In this document: piece after piece, positions 36,627 through 41,379 of the stretch
Position numbering within the stretch: position 1 is the stretch's first letter
Layout of the letters: the number at the start of each line of letters is the position of its first letter
DNA from: a virus
Virus record (IMG/VR): IMGVR_UViG_3300009506_000017
Span: 7,327-71,326 of that record
Length of the DNA: 64,000 nucleotides
Strand: one strand, 5' to 3'
Position numbers and translations under genes: made by a program
Notes under the pieces: generated by a model
The model's input: only the letters and a program-made list of their open reading frames with translations
The model's database searches: none
Told to the model about the DNA's origin: nothing

Positions 36627-37476
36627 GAAGGACCGAAGACGGGACATCATCGTCGATTCGTTCGACACCGTCTGGTGCTACCTGAACGAGCTGAAGTACT
36701 CCGGGGGTGGCAAACCGGAGATAGGGATTGCGCTGGAGCATATCTACACGATTGCCCACCAGTCCTGGCGCAACGAGTGCGACGCACGCGATGCACGAGA
36801 GACCCTTCGTGACCGTTTTGCGATGGCGTTCATCGCCGGTGGAGCGAGCTCCCCAGAGGAGGCCTACGCAGCCGCTGACCGCATGCTCGAGCATCGCGAG
36901 ATCCGGTGTTCACACACCTACGCAAATGGACCCCAGTGCTCCCGTAGGAGCGGCCACGAGGGGCAGCACCTATACCGGTGTGCGAGCCCGAAGTGTCCTG
37001 GGTACCCGTATCCAGCGAGCAAGCTGGCCCACCCATGCAAGGAGACAGACAATGCGTGAGCAAATCGCTGCTGTACGGCGCGTACTGCGCGCGGTGGAGG
37101 AGCTGTCTCCTTGCTGTCCAGTGTGCGGACAGAACTTTGAAGAACACCTGAGGGGATGTGAGTTCGCACAGCTGAAGGAATTCGCTGATCCGCGGCCGCT
37201 ACCCAACCCGGACCTGCTCGAGGAGGCCTCACGGAGGGGATGATGCTCGACCCACGTCCAGGCCAGCTCGTGCGGTTTCACTACGCACGGAAGTGGTGGC
37301 GCAACGCCATCTACCACGAGCGCCATGGTGTAGTCGTGGTGGTCTGGAATGGGAGAGGACCCCGGAACGTGGGTGTCCGACTCCGTGAAGGCACACTGGT
37401 GTGCGTTCCGAGGGGACACCTGGTCGAGTACGACCCCGACTGGAAACTCAAGCGCAAACAGCAGCAGCTGTTCTGA
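36619..37476 (+). CDS. Three small hypothetical genes (36619-37059, 37052-37243, 37240-37476)
   Basis: Coupled overlaps; Cys/His motifs; the last is KOW/SH3-like. Confidence 0.55.
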
Positions 37477-37486
37477 GGAGGCGACG

Positions 37487-38101
37487 ATGTACAACAAACT
37501 GCGATATCGGCTCAAGGGCATCCAACCGATGATTATGGCCAACGGACGAATGGCCGACCCACTGGATCCATTCGCTAAGCTACTGCACAAATTGGCAATC
37601 AAGAAAAACAAGGTGGACAAGGACCATATGGACATGGCTCACGTTGAATGGGCTGGATGTCTGTACCACACCGATGGCGACATAAGCTTCAACGGTGTCA
37701 ACGTCATCTTCGACGAGTCCATGCGAGTCATTGTTCCGGCAGAAAATATCAAGCGACTCATCCGAGACGGTGCTGCAAAAAGCCGGGAAGGCAAGTTGGT
37801 AAAAGCGGGTGTCATCATCCCCTCTGATCCATTGTTGAACTATGGCAACGGTCCACCCAACATCAACGAACTCATGAAGCTACACCGGTATTCGTATCGG
37901 AAGCGAGTCGGGCTCAGGGGGAGCTCGGTCATGCGAACACGGCCGATTTTTCGACAATGGTCACTCGATCTGGACATTGAACACGACTCGACCATTATCG
38001 ACGCGGACAAGATCGACACCGCGCTCACGACAGCCGGTCACGTAATTGGCTTGTCTGACTGGAGACCAGACACCGGAAGATTCATTGTCGAAAAACTCTG
38101 A
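37487..38101 (+). CDS. Solo RAMP-superfamily (Cas7-like) RNA-binding protein
   Basis: N-terminal strand RLKGIQPMIM, helix IVPAENIKRLIRDGA, VMRTRPIFRQWS, C-terminal Gly loop AGHVIGLSDWRPDTGRF; GAGGAGG RBS. Confidence 0.8.
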   Translation: MYNKLRYRLKGIQPMIMANGRMADPLDPFAKLLHKLAIKKNKVDKDHMDMAHVEWAGCLYHTDGDISFNGVNVIFDESMRVIVPAENIKRLIRDGAAKSREGKLVKAGVIIPSDPLLNYGNGPPNINELMKLHRYSYRKRVGLRGSSVMRTRPIFRQWSLDLDIEHDSTIIDADKIDTALTTAGHVIGLSDWRPDTGRFIVEKL

Positions 38102-38655
38102 CCATCCGGGCGTGACAACCCTGATGGTCACCAATATCGGAGCGGAATGGACGGGACCGGAAGGCAACCCACCGGAGCCCAGCGCAGCGGAGAGCAGTGG
38201 AATGCACGGCAGCGGACCGGAGAGCAAACCAACGGAGCCCACGACTGGTGTGACAGCCCTCGTGGGCGCAACGCAACCCACGGCACCGCAAGGGAAAGGA
38301 CAGGAGCGGAGCCCAGCGCAGTGGATTGGAATGCAACGGAGTGGAGAGCAAACCAACGGAGCCCACGACTGGTGTGACATCCCTCGTGGGCGCAACGCAA
38401 GGCGAACGGATCCCAGTGCAGGGGAGAGGACTGCAACGGGCCGGGGAGCAGCGGACTGCAGCGGACTGGAGAGCAAACCAACGGAGCCCACGACTGGTGT
38501 GACAGCCCTCGTGGGCGCAACGCAATTCACTGCACCGCAAGGGAAAGGACCGGAGCGGAGCCCAGCGCAGTGGAGCGGAATGCAACGGAGCGAACCGGAG
38601 AGCAAACCAACGGAGCCCACGACTGGTGTGACAACCCTCGTGGGCGCAAAGGAGT
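38101..38655 (+). ncRNA. Putative guide-RNA array: four [SSA-NN] pentamer tracts separated by conserved hairpins
   Basis: 53-bp block GGAGAGCAAACCAACGGAGCCCACGACTGGTGTGACAnCCCTCGTGGGCGCAA at 38219, 38343, 38468 and 38597; 77 of 82 pentamers start with GGA, GCA or CCA. Confidence 0.8.
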
Positions 38656-38662
38656 AACTGCA

Positions 38663-39145
38663 ATGGACATTCACCCTGTCGACGTTGCGCAACTTCAGAA
38701 GGGCGACGTTATATCAGTTGAACGAGTCGAATCAATCACTGGAACCAGACGCGATACGCAAGAATTTGACTTTGCTCTGATGTCTCTTCGTGACTTCATA
38801 GAACGGGAGAGCGCCAAGGTTGGTGACCCACTTCTGTGCAGAACCCGAAACGGGGATCTGATCGTGATGCATGATGCGGAAGCGGTTCATTACACGCGTT
38901 CCCAGTTCTGCTGTGGAGAGCAAAAGATGTACCGCAACATGGCGAGAATGATGGCAGTAGACCCATCGAAACTGTCGGAGAACGAACTCAAGACATACGA
39001 CACCAACATGCGCAATTGTGGTGCGAAGATTGCGTCCCTGTCTGCCATGACGTCAGGCAAGCGAACGATCAGCATTCGCAGAGACGGAAACCGACTTCTC
39101 GTAGATTCTGCTGGAACAAACGATGAAGACACATCCGTACGCTGA
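38663..39145 (+). CDS. Hypothetical protein directly downstream of the array
   Basis: AAGGAG RBS at the array end, ATG 38663. Confidence 0.75.
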   Translation: MDIHPVDVAQLQKGDVISVERVESITGTRRDTQEFDFALMSLRDFIERESAKVGDPLLCRTRNGDLIVMHDAEAVHYTRSQFCCGEQKMYRNMARMMAVDPSKLSENELKTYDTNMRNCGAKIASLSAMTSGKRTISIRRDGNRLLVDSAGTNDEDTSVR

Positions 39146-39407
39146 CAGGCTAGCTCGCGAGCTCCACCTGGACTCTGCAACGGGTCACATTCGTGGACCA
39201 CGGGCACTCGAGATAATCTCACGAGTGCTATGGCAAGCGGCCGATAGGTCCGAAGTCTGTACTCCATCTCCAAGGTCGTCGGTATGGAAACTACTTGGAG
39301 ACATCCGTTGCTGGCGGTGTGGATCAGACAATGTCGAGAAACGTGGACAGCTTTCCGATGCGACGTACTGGTGCATGGACTGCAAGACGTCATGGAGAGA
39401 AGGATGA
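39123..39407 (+). CDS. Hypothetical protein with C-terminal Zn ribbon
   Basis: CWRC...CMDC. Confidence 0.55.
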   Translation: MKTHPYADRLARELHLDSATGHIRGPRALEIISRVLWQAADRSEVCTPSPRSSVWKLLGDIRCWRCGSDNVEKRGQLSDATYWCMDCKTSWREG

Positions 39408-39673
39408 ACGTGAACCAACGGATTGCATGGCTCCGAACCACGACGGATCTCAGCGTACGTGAGGCGGCGCAGCTGCTCGGCATGAGCTGGAGCGGTCTTG
39501 CCCGCATTGAACGCGGGGACCGCAGCCCGAGCCTGGAGACCCTTCGCAAGGTGCATCATGTGTATGGGGTGAGCATCACGTGGCTGCTGGGGATGGACGG
39601 AGCCGTGTTTCCTGACAAGCAAGACGTCGTCAAGTCGGTAGAGGAGAGGCGCCATGGCCAACCTACCTCCTGA
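39404..39673 (+). CDS. XRE-family HTH transcriptional regulator
   Basis: LSVREAAQLLGMSWSGLARIERGDRSPSLETLRKV...GVSITWLL. Confidence 0.9.
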   Translation: MNVNQRIAWLRTTTDLSVREAAQLLGMSWSGLARIERGDRSPSLETLRKVHHVYGVSITWLLGMDGAVFPDKQDVVKSVEERRHGQPTS

Positions 39674-40211
39674 AGCGGAACAGGCAACGCGTCCACCGTC
39701 TGGCGCGATACGCATCATCTGCGATGCCGTACGCCAGGAGATACGGGCCATGGGGATCCTCGAGCAACCGTTCGCGATGCAGGCGCCCCCGCCACGCGAC
39801 CTGGACGCGGAAGATGCAGTGTGCTCCACAGCGTTCGAGGGCAAGCTTCCGCAGAATCTCAGTCACCTGGACTTTTGGTCGGCGCTGAACGCCTCCATCT
39901 ACATATCGTGCCAGCTCCAGATCGGAAAGGGGATCAAACCCAGTGTGGAGTTCATTCTGAAGGCGATGTCAAGACAAGGGTTTGCCGGCGCGGAGCTCGA
40001 GCGGGCAGTCCTCGACATCATCACCAAGGTTCCATATGCCGTTGATCTAGAAGAGAAGGCATGGAGGATTCGCACCCTCGCCAAGCGGCGCAGAGCGCTC
40101 CGGATCGTGGAGCAGTTGGACGCAGTGATCCGCGTTCCTGACACCAAGTCCGATGAACTCGAACGTCTAGCGAAGCAGCTTGGAGAGGTCCTCAGTGGCG
40201 AAGACACTTGA
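39654..40211 (+). CDS. DnaB N-terminal-like helical protein (helicase partner/loader)
   Basis: DFWSALNASIY..C..QI.KG.KP pattern; sits directly before the helicase. Confidence 0.4.
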   Translation: MANLPPEAEQATRPPSGAIRIICDAVRQEIRAMGILEQPFAMQAPPPRDLDAEDAVCSTAFEGKLPQNLSHLDFWSALNASIYISCQLQIGKGIKPSVEFILKAMSRQGFAGAELERAVLDIITKVPYAVDLEEKAWRIRTLAKRRRALRIVEQLDAVIRVPDTKSDELERLAKQLGEVLSGEDT

Positions 40212-41379
40212 TCCCAACCGGTTCGCCGACGATACACGTGACATGCTCGGCGAACCCCCAGCCGGTCGTTTCGATGACGACGACGCACTCGACGAGCAGC
40301 GCGGGCTTCGTCCGGTCAAATTGGTCGAGGGCAACAAGGTGGAGATCGTTCCGCCGCTGAAGTGGATCGATGCGAACGAAGCCGCCAAGCCGCTGCCGGC
40401 TCCGAAGTGGGTGTGCCACGACTTGTACGTGTGCCCAGGCAGGCCGTGTATGCTGGCCGGATACGGATACTCAGGCAAGACGATCATGAGCCAGAGCGCC
40501 GTGCTCCAGGCAGCAGCGGGCGAGCCCATCTGGGGCCAGTTCCGGGCTGGACCAATCAAGGCGTGCCACCTCGACCATGAGCAAGGTCGCTACGCCACCC
40601 TCAGGAGGTACCAGCGTTTGGCTCATGGCCTCGAGCTCGACTTAGAGGACCTCCAGGGCAACTTCCGGGTCGCATGTCTACCGAGGGTGTACCTCACGAC
40701 CCAGGGGGTGTTCGACATCTACTGCAAGGCGCTGGAGGGCTGGGATCTGTGCATATTGGACAGCGTTCGGGCGGCCACCCCAGGAATCGATGAGAACGAC
40801 AGCGCAATCCGGCGCTACATCGACCTATTGACCGAGGTATCGGAGAAGATCGAGATCGCTTTCTGGCTGATCCATCACTTCGGCAAGCCCAAGGAGGGAG
40901 GCAAGAACGAGCAGAAGTACAGGCTTAGGGGCAACTCGGCGATATTCGATGCATGCGGCACTGTGTTCGCCCTGGCGGCTGGAGAGGTCGGGGAGCCGAT
41001 CGAGGTCAAGAACATCAAGTCCGCCGCGGAAGCCGAGGGGGGAGCCATCGACACCTTCTACACACGGATCGAGGACGTCCCCTACCGCGGGAACAGCAGC
41101 GGTGGCCTCATAGTCCGCTATCTGCCTGCGAAGCAGGTGGAGCCCACGGACACCCCTGAGAACCGCTTTGCTCAGGCCAAGCAGGTCGTGCTCGACTACA
41201 TCCGGAAGCACCCGGGATGCGGTGGACGCAATGAGATCGCAGAGCACACCGGACTGGGACGACCACGTGTGAGCCAGTCGCTGAAAGAATTGGAGAGCTC
41301 GGGCTTCATTGAGAATCGGGGTGGTTCAGCACAAACACCAAGGCTGTACGTTATGGAACGTCCGGGAGAGGATGTATAA
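40180..41379 (+). CDS. RepA-like (AAA_25) replicative helicase with C-terminal wHTH
   Basis: AGYGYSGKT Walker A, LDHE, ILDS Walker B, IHHFGK, LRGNSAI; C-terminal HTH GRNEIAEHTGLGRPRVSQSL. Confidence 0.85.
   Translation: MERSSVAKTLDPNRFADDTRDMLGEPPAGRFDDDDALDEQRGLRPVKLVEGNKVEIVPPLKWIDANEAAKPLPAPKWVCHDLYVCPGRPCMLAGYGYSGKTIMSQSAVLQAAAGEPIWGQFRAGPIKACHLDHEQGRYATLRRYQRLAHGLELDLEDLQGNFRVACLPRVYLTTQGVFDIYCKALEGWDLCILDSVRAATPGIDENDSAIRRYIDLLTEVSEKIEIAFWLIHHFGKPKEGGKNEQKYRLRGNSAIFDACGTVFALAAGEVGEPIEVKNIKSAAEAEGGAIDTFYTRIEDVPYRGNSSGGLIVRYLPAKQVEPTDTPENRFAQAKQVVLDYIRKHPGCGGRNEIAEHTGLGRPRVSQSLKELESSGFIENRGGSAQTPRLYVMERPGEDV

What the first reader, a model, noticed from the sequence alone, without database searches (positions are those of the whole stretch)
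37487..38655. Solo Cas7-like RAMP gene plus a hairpin-punctuated periodic array: candidate non-CRISPR RNA-guided system
Seen: a 204-aa protein with RAMP hallmarks (N-terminal strand-Gly, P-x-x-N-I-K helix, C-terminal GLSDWRPDTGRF Gly loop). Its stop codon abuts a 555-nt array of four units (hairpin period 124, 125, 129 nt). No cas1, cas2, cas3, cas5 or cas6 is recognisable in the window, and the cassette looks more AT-rich than its flanks by eye. Known: Cas7-type RAMPs polymerise along guide RNA at a fixed nucleotide step. Inference: array units are processed into guides coated by a filament of this protein that binds DNA of competing viruses or the host. It recalls recently reported phage RAMP plus GGY/NN repeat (VIPR-type) systems (my recollection, to be verified), but the scaffold triplets here are GGA/GCA/CCA, so it may be a new variant.
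Basis: partly seen in the sequence, partly recalled or inferred. Interest (0 to 1): 0.97.

Follow-up and report, generated by a model that had tools for sequence, protein, structure and literature searches.

The report
Phage VIPR guide-RNA system, odd scaffold
This marine-sediment phage carries a VIPR system, a CRISPR-related RNA-guided DNA-silencing system first described in 2026. The kind is known, but its four guide RNAs use GGA/GCA/CCA spacer triplets instead of the usual GGY.

Summary
The kind is already published (VIPR, 2026 preprints), and this scan has noted it in about 100 other genomes.

- **Protein.** The 204-aa ORF (37487-38101) is a Vipr protein. It matches the solved SUSP1 Vipr over its full length (E 8e-22). 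Its model (pLDDT 97) is closest to Csm3/Cas7 folds.
- **Array.** Five hairpins bound four guide tracts of 17-21 pentamers between 38100 and 38645. This is the only such tract in the 72-kb viral genome.
- **Accessory gene.** A conserved gene follows at 38663-39145. There are no cas1 or cas2 genes.
- **What is unusual.** The scaffold triplet is GGA, GCA or CCA, never CGA, with A at position 3 in 77 of 79 pentamers. The canonical triplet is GGY.
  - The nearest Vipr relatives have GGY arrays.
  - A separate group of viral Viprs has strict GGA/NN arrays and shares this protein's G-loop motif (IGLSDW).
  - This protein alone has lost the histidine that reads G1 in SUSP1.
- **Guides.** Guides 1, 2 and 4 keep their NN dinucleotides while guide 1 uses different scaffold triplets. 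This supports NN as the code.

No target was found and transcription is untested. I class it as a new variant of a known kind, of moderate interest.

The parts
37487..38101 (+). vipr gene (204 aa, P0001), a Cas7-like RAMP of the Vipr family
   Evidence: phmmer against PDB chain 36pp_D 'SUSP1 Vipr protein', E 7.7e-22, residues 5-202. PHROG 4652, E 3e-35. AF2 pLDDT 97.3. Foldseek top hits are Csm3/Cas7.
38100..38129 (+). Leader hairpin H0. It has the same two-tier shape and GUGACA loop as the four tails, but a different outer-stem sequence.
   Evidence: RNAfold -16.9 kcal/mol, z -3.8. Loop motif shared with the tails.
38139..38243 (+). Guide tract 1: 21 SSA/NN pentamers. The last 5 are constant in all four units.
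38237..38267 (+). Tail hairpin T1 (8-bp outer stem, 3-bp inner stem)
   Evidence: RNAfold -18.8 kcal/mol, z -3.95
38268..38367 (+). Guide tract 2: 20 pentamers
38361..38391 (+). Tail hairpin T2
38408..38492 (+). Guide tract 3: 17 pentamers, two of them GGG. Its NN set is unrelated to the other three guides.
38486..38516 (+). Tail hairpin T3
38517..38621 (+). Guide tract 4: 21 pentamers, a recent duplicate of tract 2
38615..38645 (+). Tail hairpin T4
38663..39145 (+). Candidate vipr-accessory gene (vap; 160 aa, P0157), with AAGGAG 8 nt upstream of the ATG
   Evidence: phmmer homologs lie beside vipr in three other loci: L092 3e-17, L144 3e-15, L001 4e-14. The AF2 model shows a winged-helix-like N-terminus plus two long helices, pLDDT 76.5.

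Best explanation
This is a phage-borne VIPR system (Viral Interference Programmable Repeat): vipr, then an array of four vrRNA genes, then an accessory gene.

The likely mechanism, by analogy with the solved SUSP1 system:
1. The array is transcribed with vipr.
2. It is cut into units of about 124 nt, each a guide tract plus a 3' hairpin tail.
3. One Vipr protomer binds each pentamer. It hides the scaffold triplet and exposes the NN dinucleotide.
4. The 16-21 NN pairs read double-stranded DNA with one skipped base between pairs, giving a footprint of about 50-60 bp.
5. Binding silences transcription of a competing mobile element.

The local peculiarity is the scaffold: an invariant A at position 3 preceded by GG, GC or CC, instead of GGY.

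Shown here: family membership of the protein, the array anatomy, the conserved neighbour gene, the viral context and the absence of a self-target. Inferred: transcription, processing, filament formation, the skip rule and the target.
For: **Protein**
- Full-length sequence match to the solved SUSP1 Vipr.
- The family has 2058 cluster representatives at E <= 1e-3.
- RAMP fold, with Csm3, gRAMP and Csf2 as best solved matches.
- SUSP1's RNA-contact residues D177, W178, R179, R138 and E71 are conserved, as D191, W192, R193, R152 and E86 (residue roles from bioRxiv 10.64898/2026.04.26.720927).

**Array**
- Strict 5-nt register, lag-5 z = 10.5.
- Unique in the genome and on the vipr strand.
- The guide tract is not structured (z 0.31), while all five hairpins are (z -3.2 to -4.5).
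- The leader hairpin keeps the tails' shape with a different stem sequence.

**Relatives**
- The nearest homologs carry pentamer arrays directly after the vipr stop codon.
- 14 other viral loci with A-type pentamers encode a Vipr on the same strand.

**NN as the code**
- Guides 2 and 4 are 97% identical in scaffold positions but only 80% in NN.
- Guide 1 against guides 2 and 4 is 70-78% identical in NN (permutation mean about 35%, none of 5000 permutations reached it) but only 50% in scaffold positions.

**Constraint rather than decay**
- 54 of the 56 non-G letters at scaffold positions 1-2 are C, and CGA never occurs.

**Self-target**
- None found under skip rules 0-3, as the published systems report.
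Against: - No RNA data: only one DNA run, from marine sediment, holds the stretch.
- No target was found in IMG/VR, GTDB genomes or JGI metagenomes with exact-match gapped patterns.
- The SUSP1 structure paper says the position-3 pocket sterically excludes purines, so an A there needs a different pocket. I could only infer that from sequence covariation.
- The G1-reading histidine is replaced by alanine, which could mean weaker RNA binding rather than relaxed specificity.
- The guide 1 against guides 2/4 comparison is partly ambiguous, because three successive GC dinucleotides allow an alternative alignment shifted by one pentamer.
- The protein has no relative above 50% identity, so no comparative test within its own lineage is possible.
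Confidence: 0.85

Rival explanations
1. A decaying VIPR locus: the array is a relic whose GG scaffolds have mutated, and it no longer loads onto Vipr.
For: - Half of the pentamers lack the canonical GG.
- The G1-reading histidine is lost.
- Unit 3 has two GGG pentamers and a 6-nt irregularity.
- No target was found.
Against: - Changes at scaffold positions 1-2 are almost only G to C transversions (54 of 56), with no CG combination.
- A3 is kept in 77 of 79 pentamers and the register is unbroken.
- The hairpins are intact, and the leader hairpin has compensated stem changes.
- NN is conserved between guide 1 and guides 2/4 far above chance.
- vipr and vap are intact ORFs.
Confidence: 0.07
2. 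A VIPR-like system with a different code: the G/C pair before each A also pairs with the target, so four letters per pentamer are read and the targeting rule is not the 1-nt skip rule.
For: Scaffold positions 1-2 vary within one array, unlike the strict GGA or GCA arrays of other loci. The protein has four substitutions unique among 56 homologs at or near nucleic-acid contacts.
Against: - Guides 1 and 2/4 share NN but not the G/C pairs, which is expected if only NN is read.
- The G2 contacts R152 and W192 are conserved.
- blastn of the array against phage genomes, which would detect a same-period target, found nothing.
Confidence: 0.06
3. Not guide RNAs at all: the tract is a protein-coding ORF (38046-38657 is open) or a set of DNA repeats such as iterons for the nearby replication-type protein.
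For: Several frames on both strands are open across the tract. An AAA_25 plus winged-helix protein lies 1.5 kb downstream.
Against: - The open frames follow from the near absence of T.
- A 5-nt period is incompatible with codon structure.
- The same arrangement, vipr stop followed by a pentamer array, recurs in unrelated contigs.
- The five hairpins have RNA-like compensated stems.
Confidence: 0.02

Closest known systems
Type II VIPR system of Escherichia phage SUSP1 (Vipr, vap1, vrRNAs; bioRxiv 10.64898/2026.04.26.720920 and .720927; PDB 36pp)
   Same: - Homologous Vipr protein (E 8e-22, about 30% identity).
- Conserved DWRP G-loop and thumb arginine.
- Array of ~100-125-nt units, each a run of pentamers (fixed triplet plus NN) followed by a constant structured 3' tail.
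- A small accessory gene alongside.
- Phage-encoded, with no cas genes and no self-target.
   Different: - The triplet is GGA/GCA/CCA, not GGY.
- 17-21 pentamers per guide, against 9-16.
- The tail is a two-tier hairpin; I did not identify a pseudoknot.
- The array lies between vipr and the accessory gene.
- H17 is replaced by A and K33 by H.
- The accessory protein shows no significant similarity to the wV8/SUSP1-type vap1 (hhalign probability 2.8%).
Non-canonical VIPR arrays reported from the Evo-PIN/COMPASS survey (bioRxiv 10.64898/2026.10.21.760802): 21 clusters with GAC/NN, CAC/NN, WGT/NN, TGH/NN and others
   Same: A 5-nt period, a non-GGY fixed triplet and an adjacent Vipr-like fold.
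   Different: The triplets named in the text I could read end in a pyrimidine or H. This one ends in an invariant A and mixes three triplets within one array. The paper's figure S10 is not readable with these tools, so overlap cannot be excluded.
Strict GGA/NN and GCA/NN Vipr loci found here in IMG/VR (L144, L092, L153, L050, L065, L122, L140, L117; L040, L136)
   Same: A at position 3, array on the vipr strand, and in the nearer ones the same G-loop motif IGLS(D/E)(W/Y). L092 and L144 also carry a homolog of the accessory gene.
   Different: Those arrays use a single triplet in 90-100% of pentamers. The window uses GGA 49%, GCA 31% and CCA 19%. By overall sequence the window's protein is closer to GGY-type Viprs, and its place in the tree is unresolved.
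Class 1 CRISPR backbone subunits (Csm3/Cas7, Csf2, gRAMP)
   Same: RAMP fold, with best solved structural matches at E 2e-5 to 5e-4. One subunit binds per fixed step of guide RNA.
   Different: No CRISPR repeats, no cas1, cas2 or other cas genes. The step is 5 nt with a gapped code, not 6 nt with contiguous pairing. Sequence identity is only 8-16%.

Membership tests
VIPR system | Vipr protein: a minimal RAMP with RRM core, glycine-rich loop and thumb, homologous to published Viprs | tested here: met
   phmmer to the SUSP1 Vipr chain 36pp_D, E 7.7e-22, full length. AF2 pLDDT 97.3. Csm3/Cas7 are the top folds.
VIPR system | vrRNA made of tandem pentamers in which a fixed triplet alternates with a variable NN (at least 4 units) | tested here: met
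   79 pentamers in four tracts. Position 3 is A in 77 of 79, and NN takes 14 different values. Lag-5 z = 10.5.
VIPR system | Canonical triplet GGY (the papers also allow a 'related consensus') | tested here: not met
   GGA 36, GCA 25, CCA 14, GGY 0. There are no GGY runs anywhere in the genome.
VIPR system | Constant structured 3' tail after each repeat tract | tested here: met
   Four near-identical hairpins plus a leader hairpin, z -3.2 to -4.5.
VIPR system | Minimal locus with a vap accessory gene and no CRISPR array or cas genes | tested here: met
   P0157 has homologs beside vipr in L092, L144 and L001. No Cas1 or Cas2 match. This is the only large tandem array in the window apart from a 45-nt coding repeat. 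Identity with one of the published vap1-6 is not established.
VIPR system | Viral or proviral context | tested here: met
   IMG/VR virus record of 72,434 nt. PHROG hits to tail protein, helicase and topoisomerase.
VIPR system | vrRNAs are expressed and co-purify with Vipr | not testable with these tools
   Only one DNA run holds the stretch, and no RNA run does.
VIPR system | NN strings match a natural DNA target under the 1-nt skip rule (at least 80% NN match) and none in the own genome | tested here: inconclusive
   The own genome scores at shuffled-control level, as expected. No external target was found. Hits in GTDB genomes and JGI metagenomes reach at most 71% NN match and look like chance.
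Class 1 CRISPR-Cas | CRISPR repeat-spacer array plus cas genes (adaptation module or other effector subunits) | tested here: not met

The most novel reading that the evidence does not exclude
This Vipr has a relaxed scaffold specificity. It accepts GG, GC or CC (never CG) before an obligatory A. This goes with loss of the G1-reading histidine and a G-loop of the A-type (IGLSDW). The phage uses that freedom to carry 'synonymous' guides, tract 1 against tracts 2 and 4, which spell nearly the same NN code on different scaffolds. These would be redundant guides against one target family without long DNA repeats. If so, this is natural evidence that only NN carries specificity, and it widens the design space for engineered vrRNAs.
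Probability: 0.4. Interest if true: 0.55.

Novelty: new variant of a known kind. Interest (0 to 1): 0.4.

Why it matters
VIPR is a newly described RNA-guided DNA-recognition system with a gapped code. The published structure explains GGY recognition residue by residue and states that purines are excluded at position 3.

This locus, together with the GGA/NN loci found alongside it, shows a natural class with a purine at that position. In the near subfamily the difference tracks one G-loop residue: Ser with A3, and Gly (once Cys) with Y3, in 13 of 13 loci. That gives a directly testable specificity switch.

The mixed GGA/GCA/CCA scaffold and the scaffold-recoded guide paralogs suggest how much of a vrRNA can be changed without altering its target. 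That is useful for engineering. It does not change the picture of what VIPR is.

Tried and rejected
**Close relatives of the protein**
- Single-sequence scans of IMG/VR and GTDB found none.
- The 90%-cluster search shows a singleton with no relative above 50% identity.

**Target search**
- Own genome under skip rules 0-3: all at shuffled-control level.
- Consensus 1-nt-skip pattern of guides 1/2/4: 0 hits in IMG/VR, 16 in GTDB genomes and 17 in JGI metagenomes. The hits are scattered over unrelated high-GC taxa, reach at most 71% NN match and are judged to be chance.
- Guide 3 pattern: 0 hits.
- Patterns that include the constant pentamers: 0 hits.
- These scans accept only exact matches, so imperfect natural targets would be missed.

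**Sibling arrays**
- Tail motif scan of IMG/VR: 0 hits.
- blastn of the array against phage genomes: no match.

**Other checks**
- Rfam has no ribozyme or other family in 37900-38800.
- No sigma-70-like promoter or terminator stands out.
- The window has no tRNA to hint at a host, so the host remains unknown.
- The accessory protein against the wV8/SUSP1-type vap1: BLAST nothing, hhalign probability 2.8%. Its PDB fold matches are weak (ScpB-like winged helix, E 0.05).
- The upstream 78-aa ORF (37240-37476) is not conserved beside other vipr genes, so I do not count it as part of the system.
- A tree of 16 Viprs with known scaffold type did not resolve whether the window's A-type G-loop is shared by descent or convergent.

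Full report
**Observation.** A hairpin starts inside its stop codon at 38100, followed by four units. Their constant tail core recurs at 38238, 38362, 38487 and 38616, giving periods of 124, 125 and 129 nt (Tandem Repeats Finder period 124, score 566). Within the units the sequence runs in an unbroken 5-nt register. Identity at lag 5 is 0.506 against 0.297 in shuffles (z = 10.5), and the vipr coding sequence shows no such signal. A scan of both strands of the whole 72,434-nt viral record found such runs only here and no GGY-type runs anywhere. The 'AT-rich cassette' remark holds for the two genes (GC 0.51 against 0.60 in the flanks) but not for the array (0.65).

**The protein.**
- Pfam has no model for it. 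PHROG 4652, of unknown function, matches at 3e-35.
- phmmer against PDB sequences finds one chain, 36pp_D 'SUSP1 Vipr protein', at E 7.7e-22 over residues 5-202.
- An exhaustive HMMER search finds 2058 cluster representatives at E <= 1e-3. The nearest is 42-45% identical.
- The 90%-identity cluster holds this single sequence from this single contig.
- An AlphaFold2 model built on 56 homologs has pLDDT 97.3. Its best solved matches are Csm3/Cas7 of type III-A, gRAMP/Cas7-11 and Csf2 (E 2e-5 to 5e-4). That Foldseek library ends before the Vipr structures were released.
- The protein is therefore a Vipr. This family was described in April 2026 (bioRxiv 10.64898/2026.04.26.720920) and solved by cryo-EM (10.64898/2026.04.26.720927).

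**The array.**
- Five hairpins bound four guide tracts: 38139-38243, 38268-38367, 38408-38492 and 38517-38621, holding 21, 20, 17 and 21 pentamers.
- The four tails are near-identical, with an 8-bp outer stem, a 3-bp inner stem and a loop containing GUGACA.
- The leader hairpin has the same two-tier shape and loop motif but a different outer-stem sequence, so its stem changes are compensated. All five fold much better than shuffles (z -3.2 to -4.5).
- A whole unit is no more structured than its shuffles (z 0.31), which fits a single-stranded guide.
- The last five pentamers before each tail are identical in all four units. They may belong to the constant tail module rather than to the guide.
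- Rfam finds no ribozyme or other family here.

**The scaffold.**
- Of 79 pentamers, 36 are GGA, 25 GCA, 14 CCA and none CGA. Position 3 is A in 77. At positions 1-2, 54 of the 56 non-G letters are C. This is a constrained alphabet, not mutational decay.
- The published canonical unit is GGY/NN, and the structure paper describes a position-3 pocket that sterically excludes purines.
- The three nearest homologs whose contigs I could read (39-44% identity; L001, L002/L003, L004) all carry GGY/NN arrays directly after the vipr stop codon.
- A pattern scan of IMG/VR for 14 successive SSA/NN pentamers returned mostly simple tandem repeats. Nineteen loci had diverse NN, and 14 of those encode a Vipr homolog next to the array on the same strand.
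- Those arrays are strict: 90-100% GGA, or 93-100% GCA. The window's array is mixed.
- One further locus, L161, shows a mixed A-type scaffold (GGA, GCA, GTA, TGA, TCA).
- So A at position 3 is a recurrent natural class. The G/C mixture within one array is the window's own peculiarity.

**Protein-RNA covariation.** I aligned Viprs whose arrays I could read.
- The residue before the G-loop aspartate (position 190 here) is Ser in every near-subfamily locus with A at position 3: the window, L144, L092, L153, L050, L160 and L161.
- It is Gly, or once Cys, in every locus with Y at position 3: L001, L002, L004, wV8, L162 and L163.
- L160-L163 were fetched as a prediction test after the pattern was seen.
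- L092 and L153 are near-identical, and relatedness is not controlled for, so this is a lead and not proof. More distant GGA-type Viprs have Ala or Cys at this site.
- Position 187, which is C173 in SUSP1 and one of the residues said to restrict the pocket, is Ile in the nearer A-type loci (Val in L160 and L161).
- Four substitutions are unique to the window's protein among 56 homologs: H18A (SUSP1 H17, which hydrogen-bonds G1), K34H (SUSP1 K33, a backbone contact at the skipped base), and D195 and T196 in place of a basic and an aromatic residue.
- The G2 contacts R152 and W192 are conserved.
- Loss of the G1-reading histidine fits the relaxed first position, but this is inference.
- A tree of 16 Viprs groups the A-type proteins (support 86/90) and leaves the window's protein outside on its own branch, unresolved.

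**The guides.**
- Aligned in register from the tail, tracts 2 and 4 are 97% identical at scaffold positions 1-2 and 80% identical at NN. Six of their seven substitutions fall in NN, which is the published signature of hypervariable NN.
- Tract 1 against tracts 2 and 4 shows the reverse. NN is 70-78% identical (permutation mean about 35%; none of 5000 permutations reached it). Scaffold positions are only 50% identical, below the permutation mean of about 62%.
- Tract 3 is unrelated in NN to the others (14-29%).
- The clearest stretch is five successive pentamers in which all five triplets differ while 8 of 10 NN letters agree.
- A run of three GC dinucleotides allows an alternative alignment, shifted by one pentamer, for the middle part. 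The effect is therefore somewhat less clean than the totals suggest.
- My reading: three of the four guides address one target family, NN is what selection preserves, and GGA, GCA and CCA are interchangeable.

**Neighbours and context.**
- The ORF at 38663-39145 (160 aa, AAGGAG 8 nt upstream of the ATG) has homologs beside vipr in L092, L144 and L001, in variable gene order.
- Its model (pLDDT 76.5) has a winged-helix-like N-terminus and two long helices. It matches only uncharacterised AlphaFold clusters (best E 4e-7), with weak ScpB-type winged-helix hits in the PDB.
- I treat it as the accessory gene (vap). Identity with the published vap1 is not established.
- The genome has no Cas1 or Cas2.
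- The record is an IMG/VR virus, estimated 80% complete, with phage-type helicase, topoisomerase and tail-protein matches. It was assembled from a marine sediment metagenome.

**Targets.**
- No site in the phage's own genome exceeds shuffled-guide controls under skip rules 0-3. This agrees with the published absence of self-targeting.
- Gapped exact-match patterns derived from the guides found nothing in IMG/VR. In GTDB genomes and JGI metagenomes they found only scattered matches of at most 71% NN identity that look like chance.
- The target is unknown, and so is the host (no tRNA).

**Mechanism and verdict.**
- Most likely (about 0.85) this is a working VIPR system that silences a competing mobile element through Vipr filaments on four vrRNAs.
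- It is a member of a published kind, and this scan has already noted VIPR in about 100 other genomes.
- It departs from the canonical description in its scaffold triplets. Non-canonical triplets are reported in general (10.64898/2026.10.21.760802), but none of the examples named in the text I could read ends in A or mixes triplets within one array.
- I class it as a new variant of a known kind, of moderate interest. The useful leads are the Ser/Gly G-loop switch and the scaffold-recoded guide paralogs. Both are cheap to test at the bench.

Noticed in passing
L140:6830-6880, 6970-7015, 7125-7170: In another viral Vipr locus with strict GGA/NN arrays, each guide ends in a tail that looks like a tRNA minihelix: a T-arm with GGTTCGACTCC plus an acceptor-like stem. 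This suggests processing by tRNA-maturing enzymes. ARAGORN calls no tRNA there.
   Followed up: partly
L161:2190-2480: A second Vipr locus whose A-type array mixes scaffold triplets (GGA, GCA, GTA, TGA, TCA). A BstA_C-domain gene lies nearby.
   Followed up: partly
window 39284-39673 and 40180-41379: Just downstream of the VIPR cassette lie a Cro/CI-type HTH_3 protein (E 2e-12) and an AAA_25 plus winged-helix protein of the RepA/primase-helicase type (E 5e-21). This is probably the phage's regulatory and replication module.
   Followed up: no
window 37487-39145: vipr and the accessory gene have GC about 0.51, against about 0.60 for the flanks and 0.593 for the window. This suggests the cassette was acquired horizontally.
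   Followed up: partly
window 57551-57706: A 45-nt tandem repeat of 3.7 copies (64% matches) lies inside the 586-aa ORF at 57020-58780.
   Followed up: no
window 20720-24421: A 1233-aa ORF whose only PHROG hit is a short one (residues 746-799).
   Followed up: no
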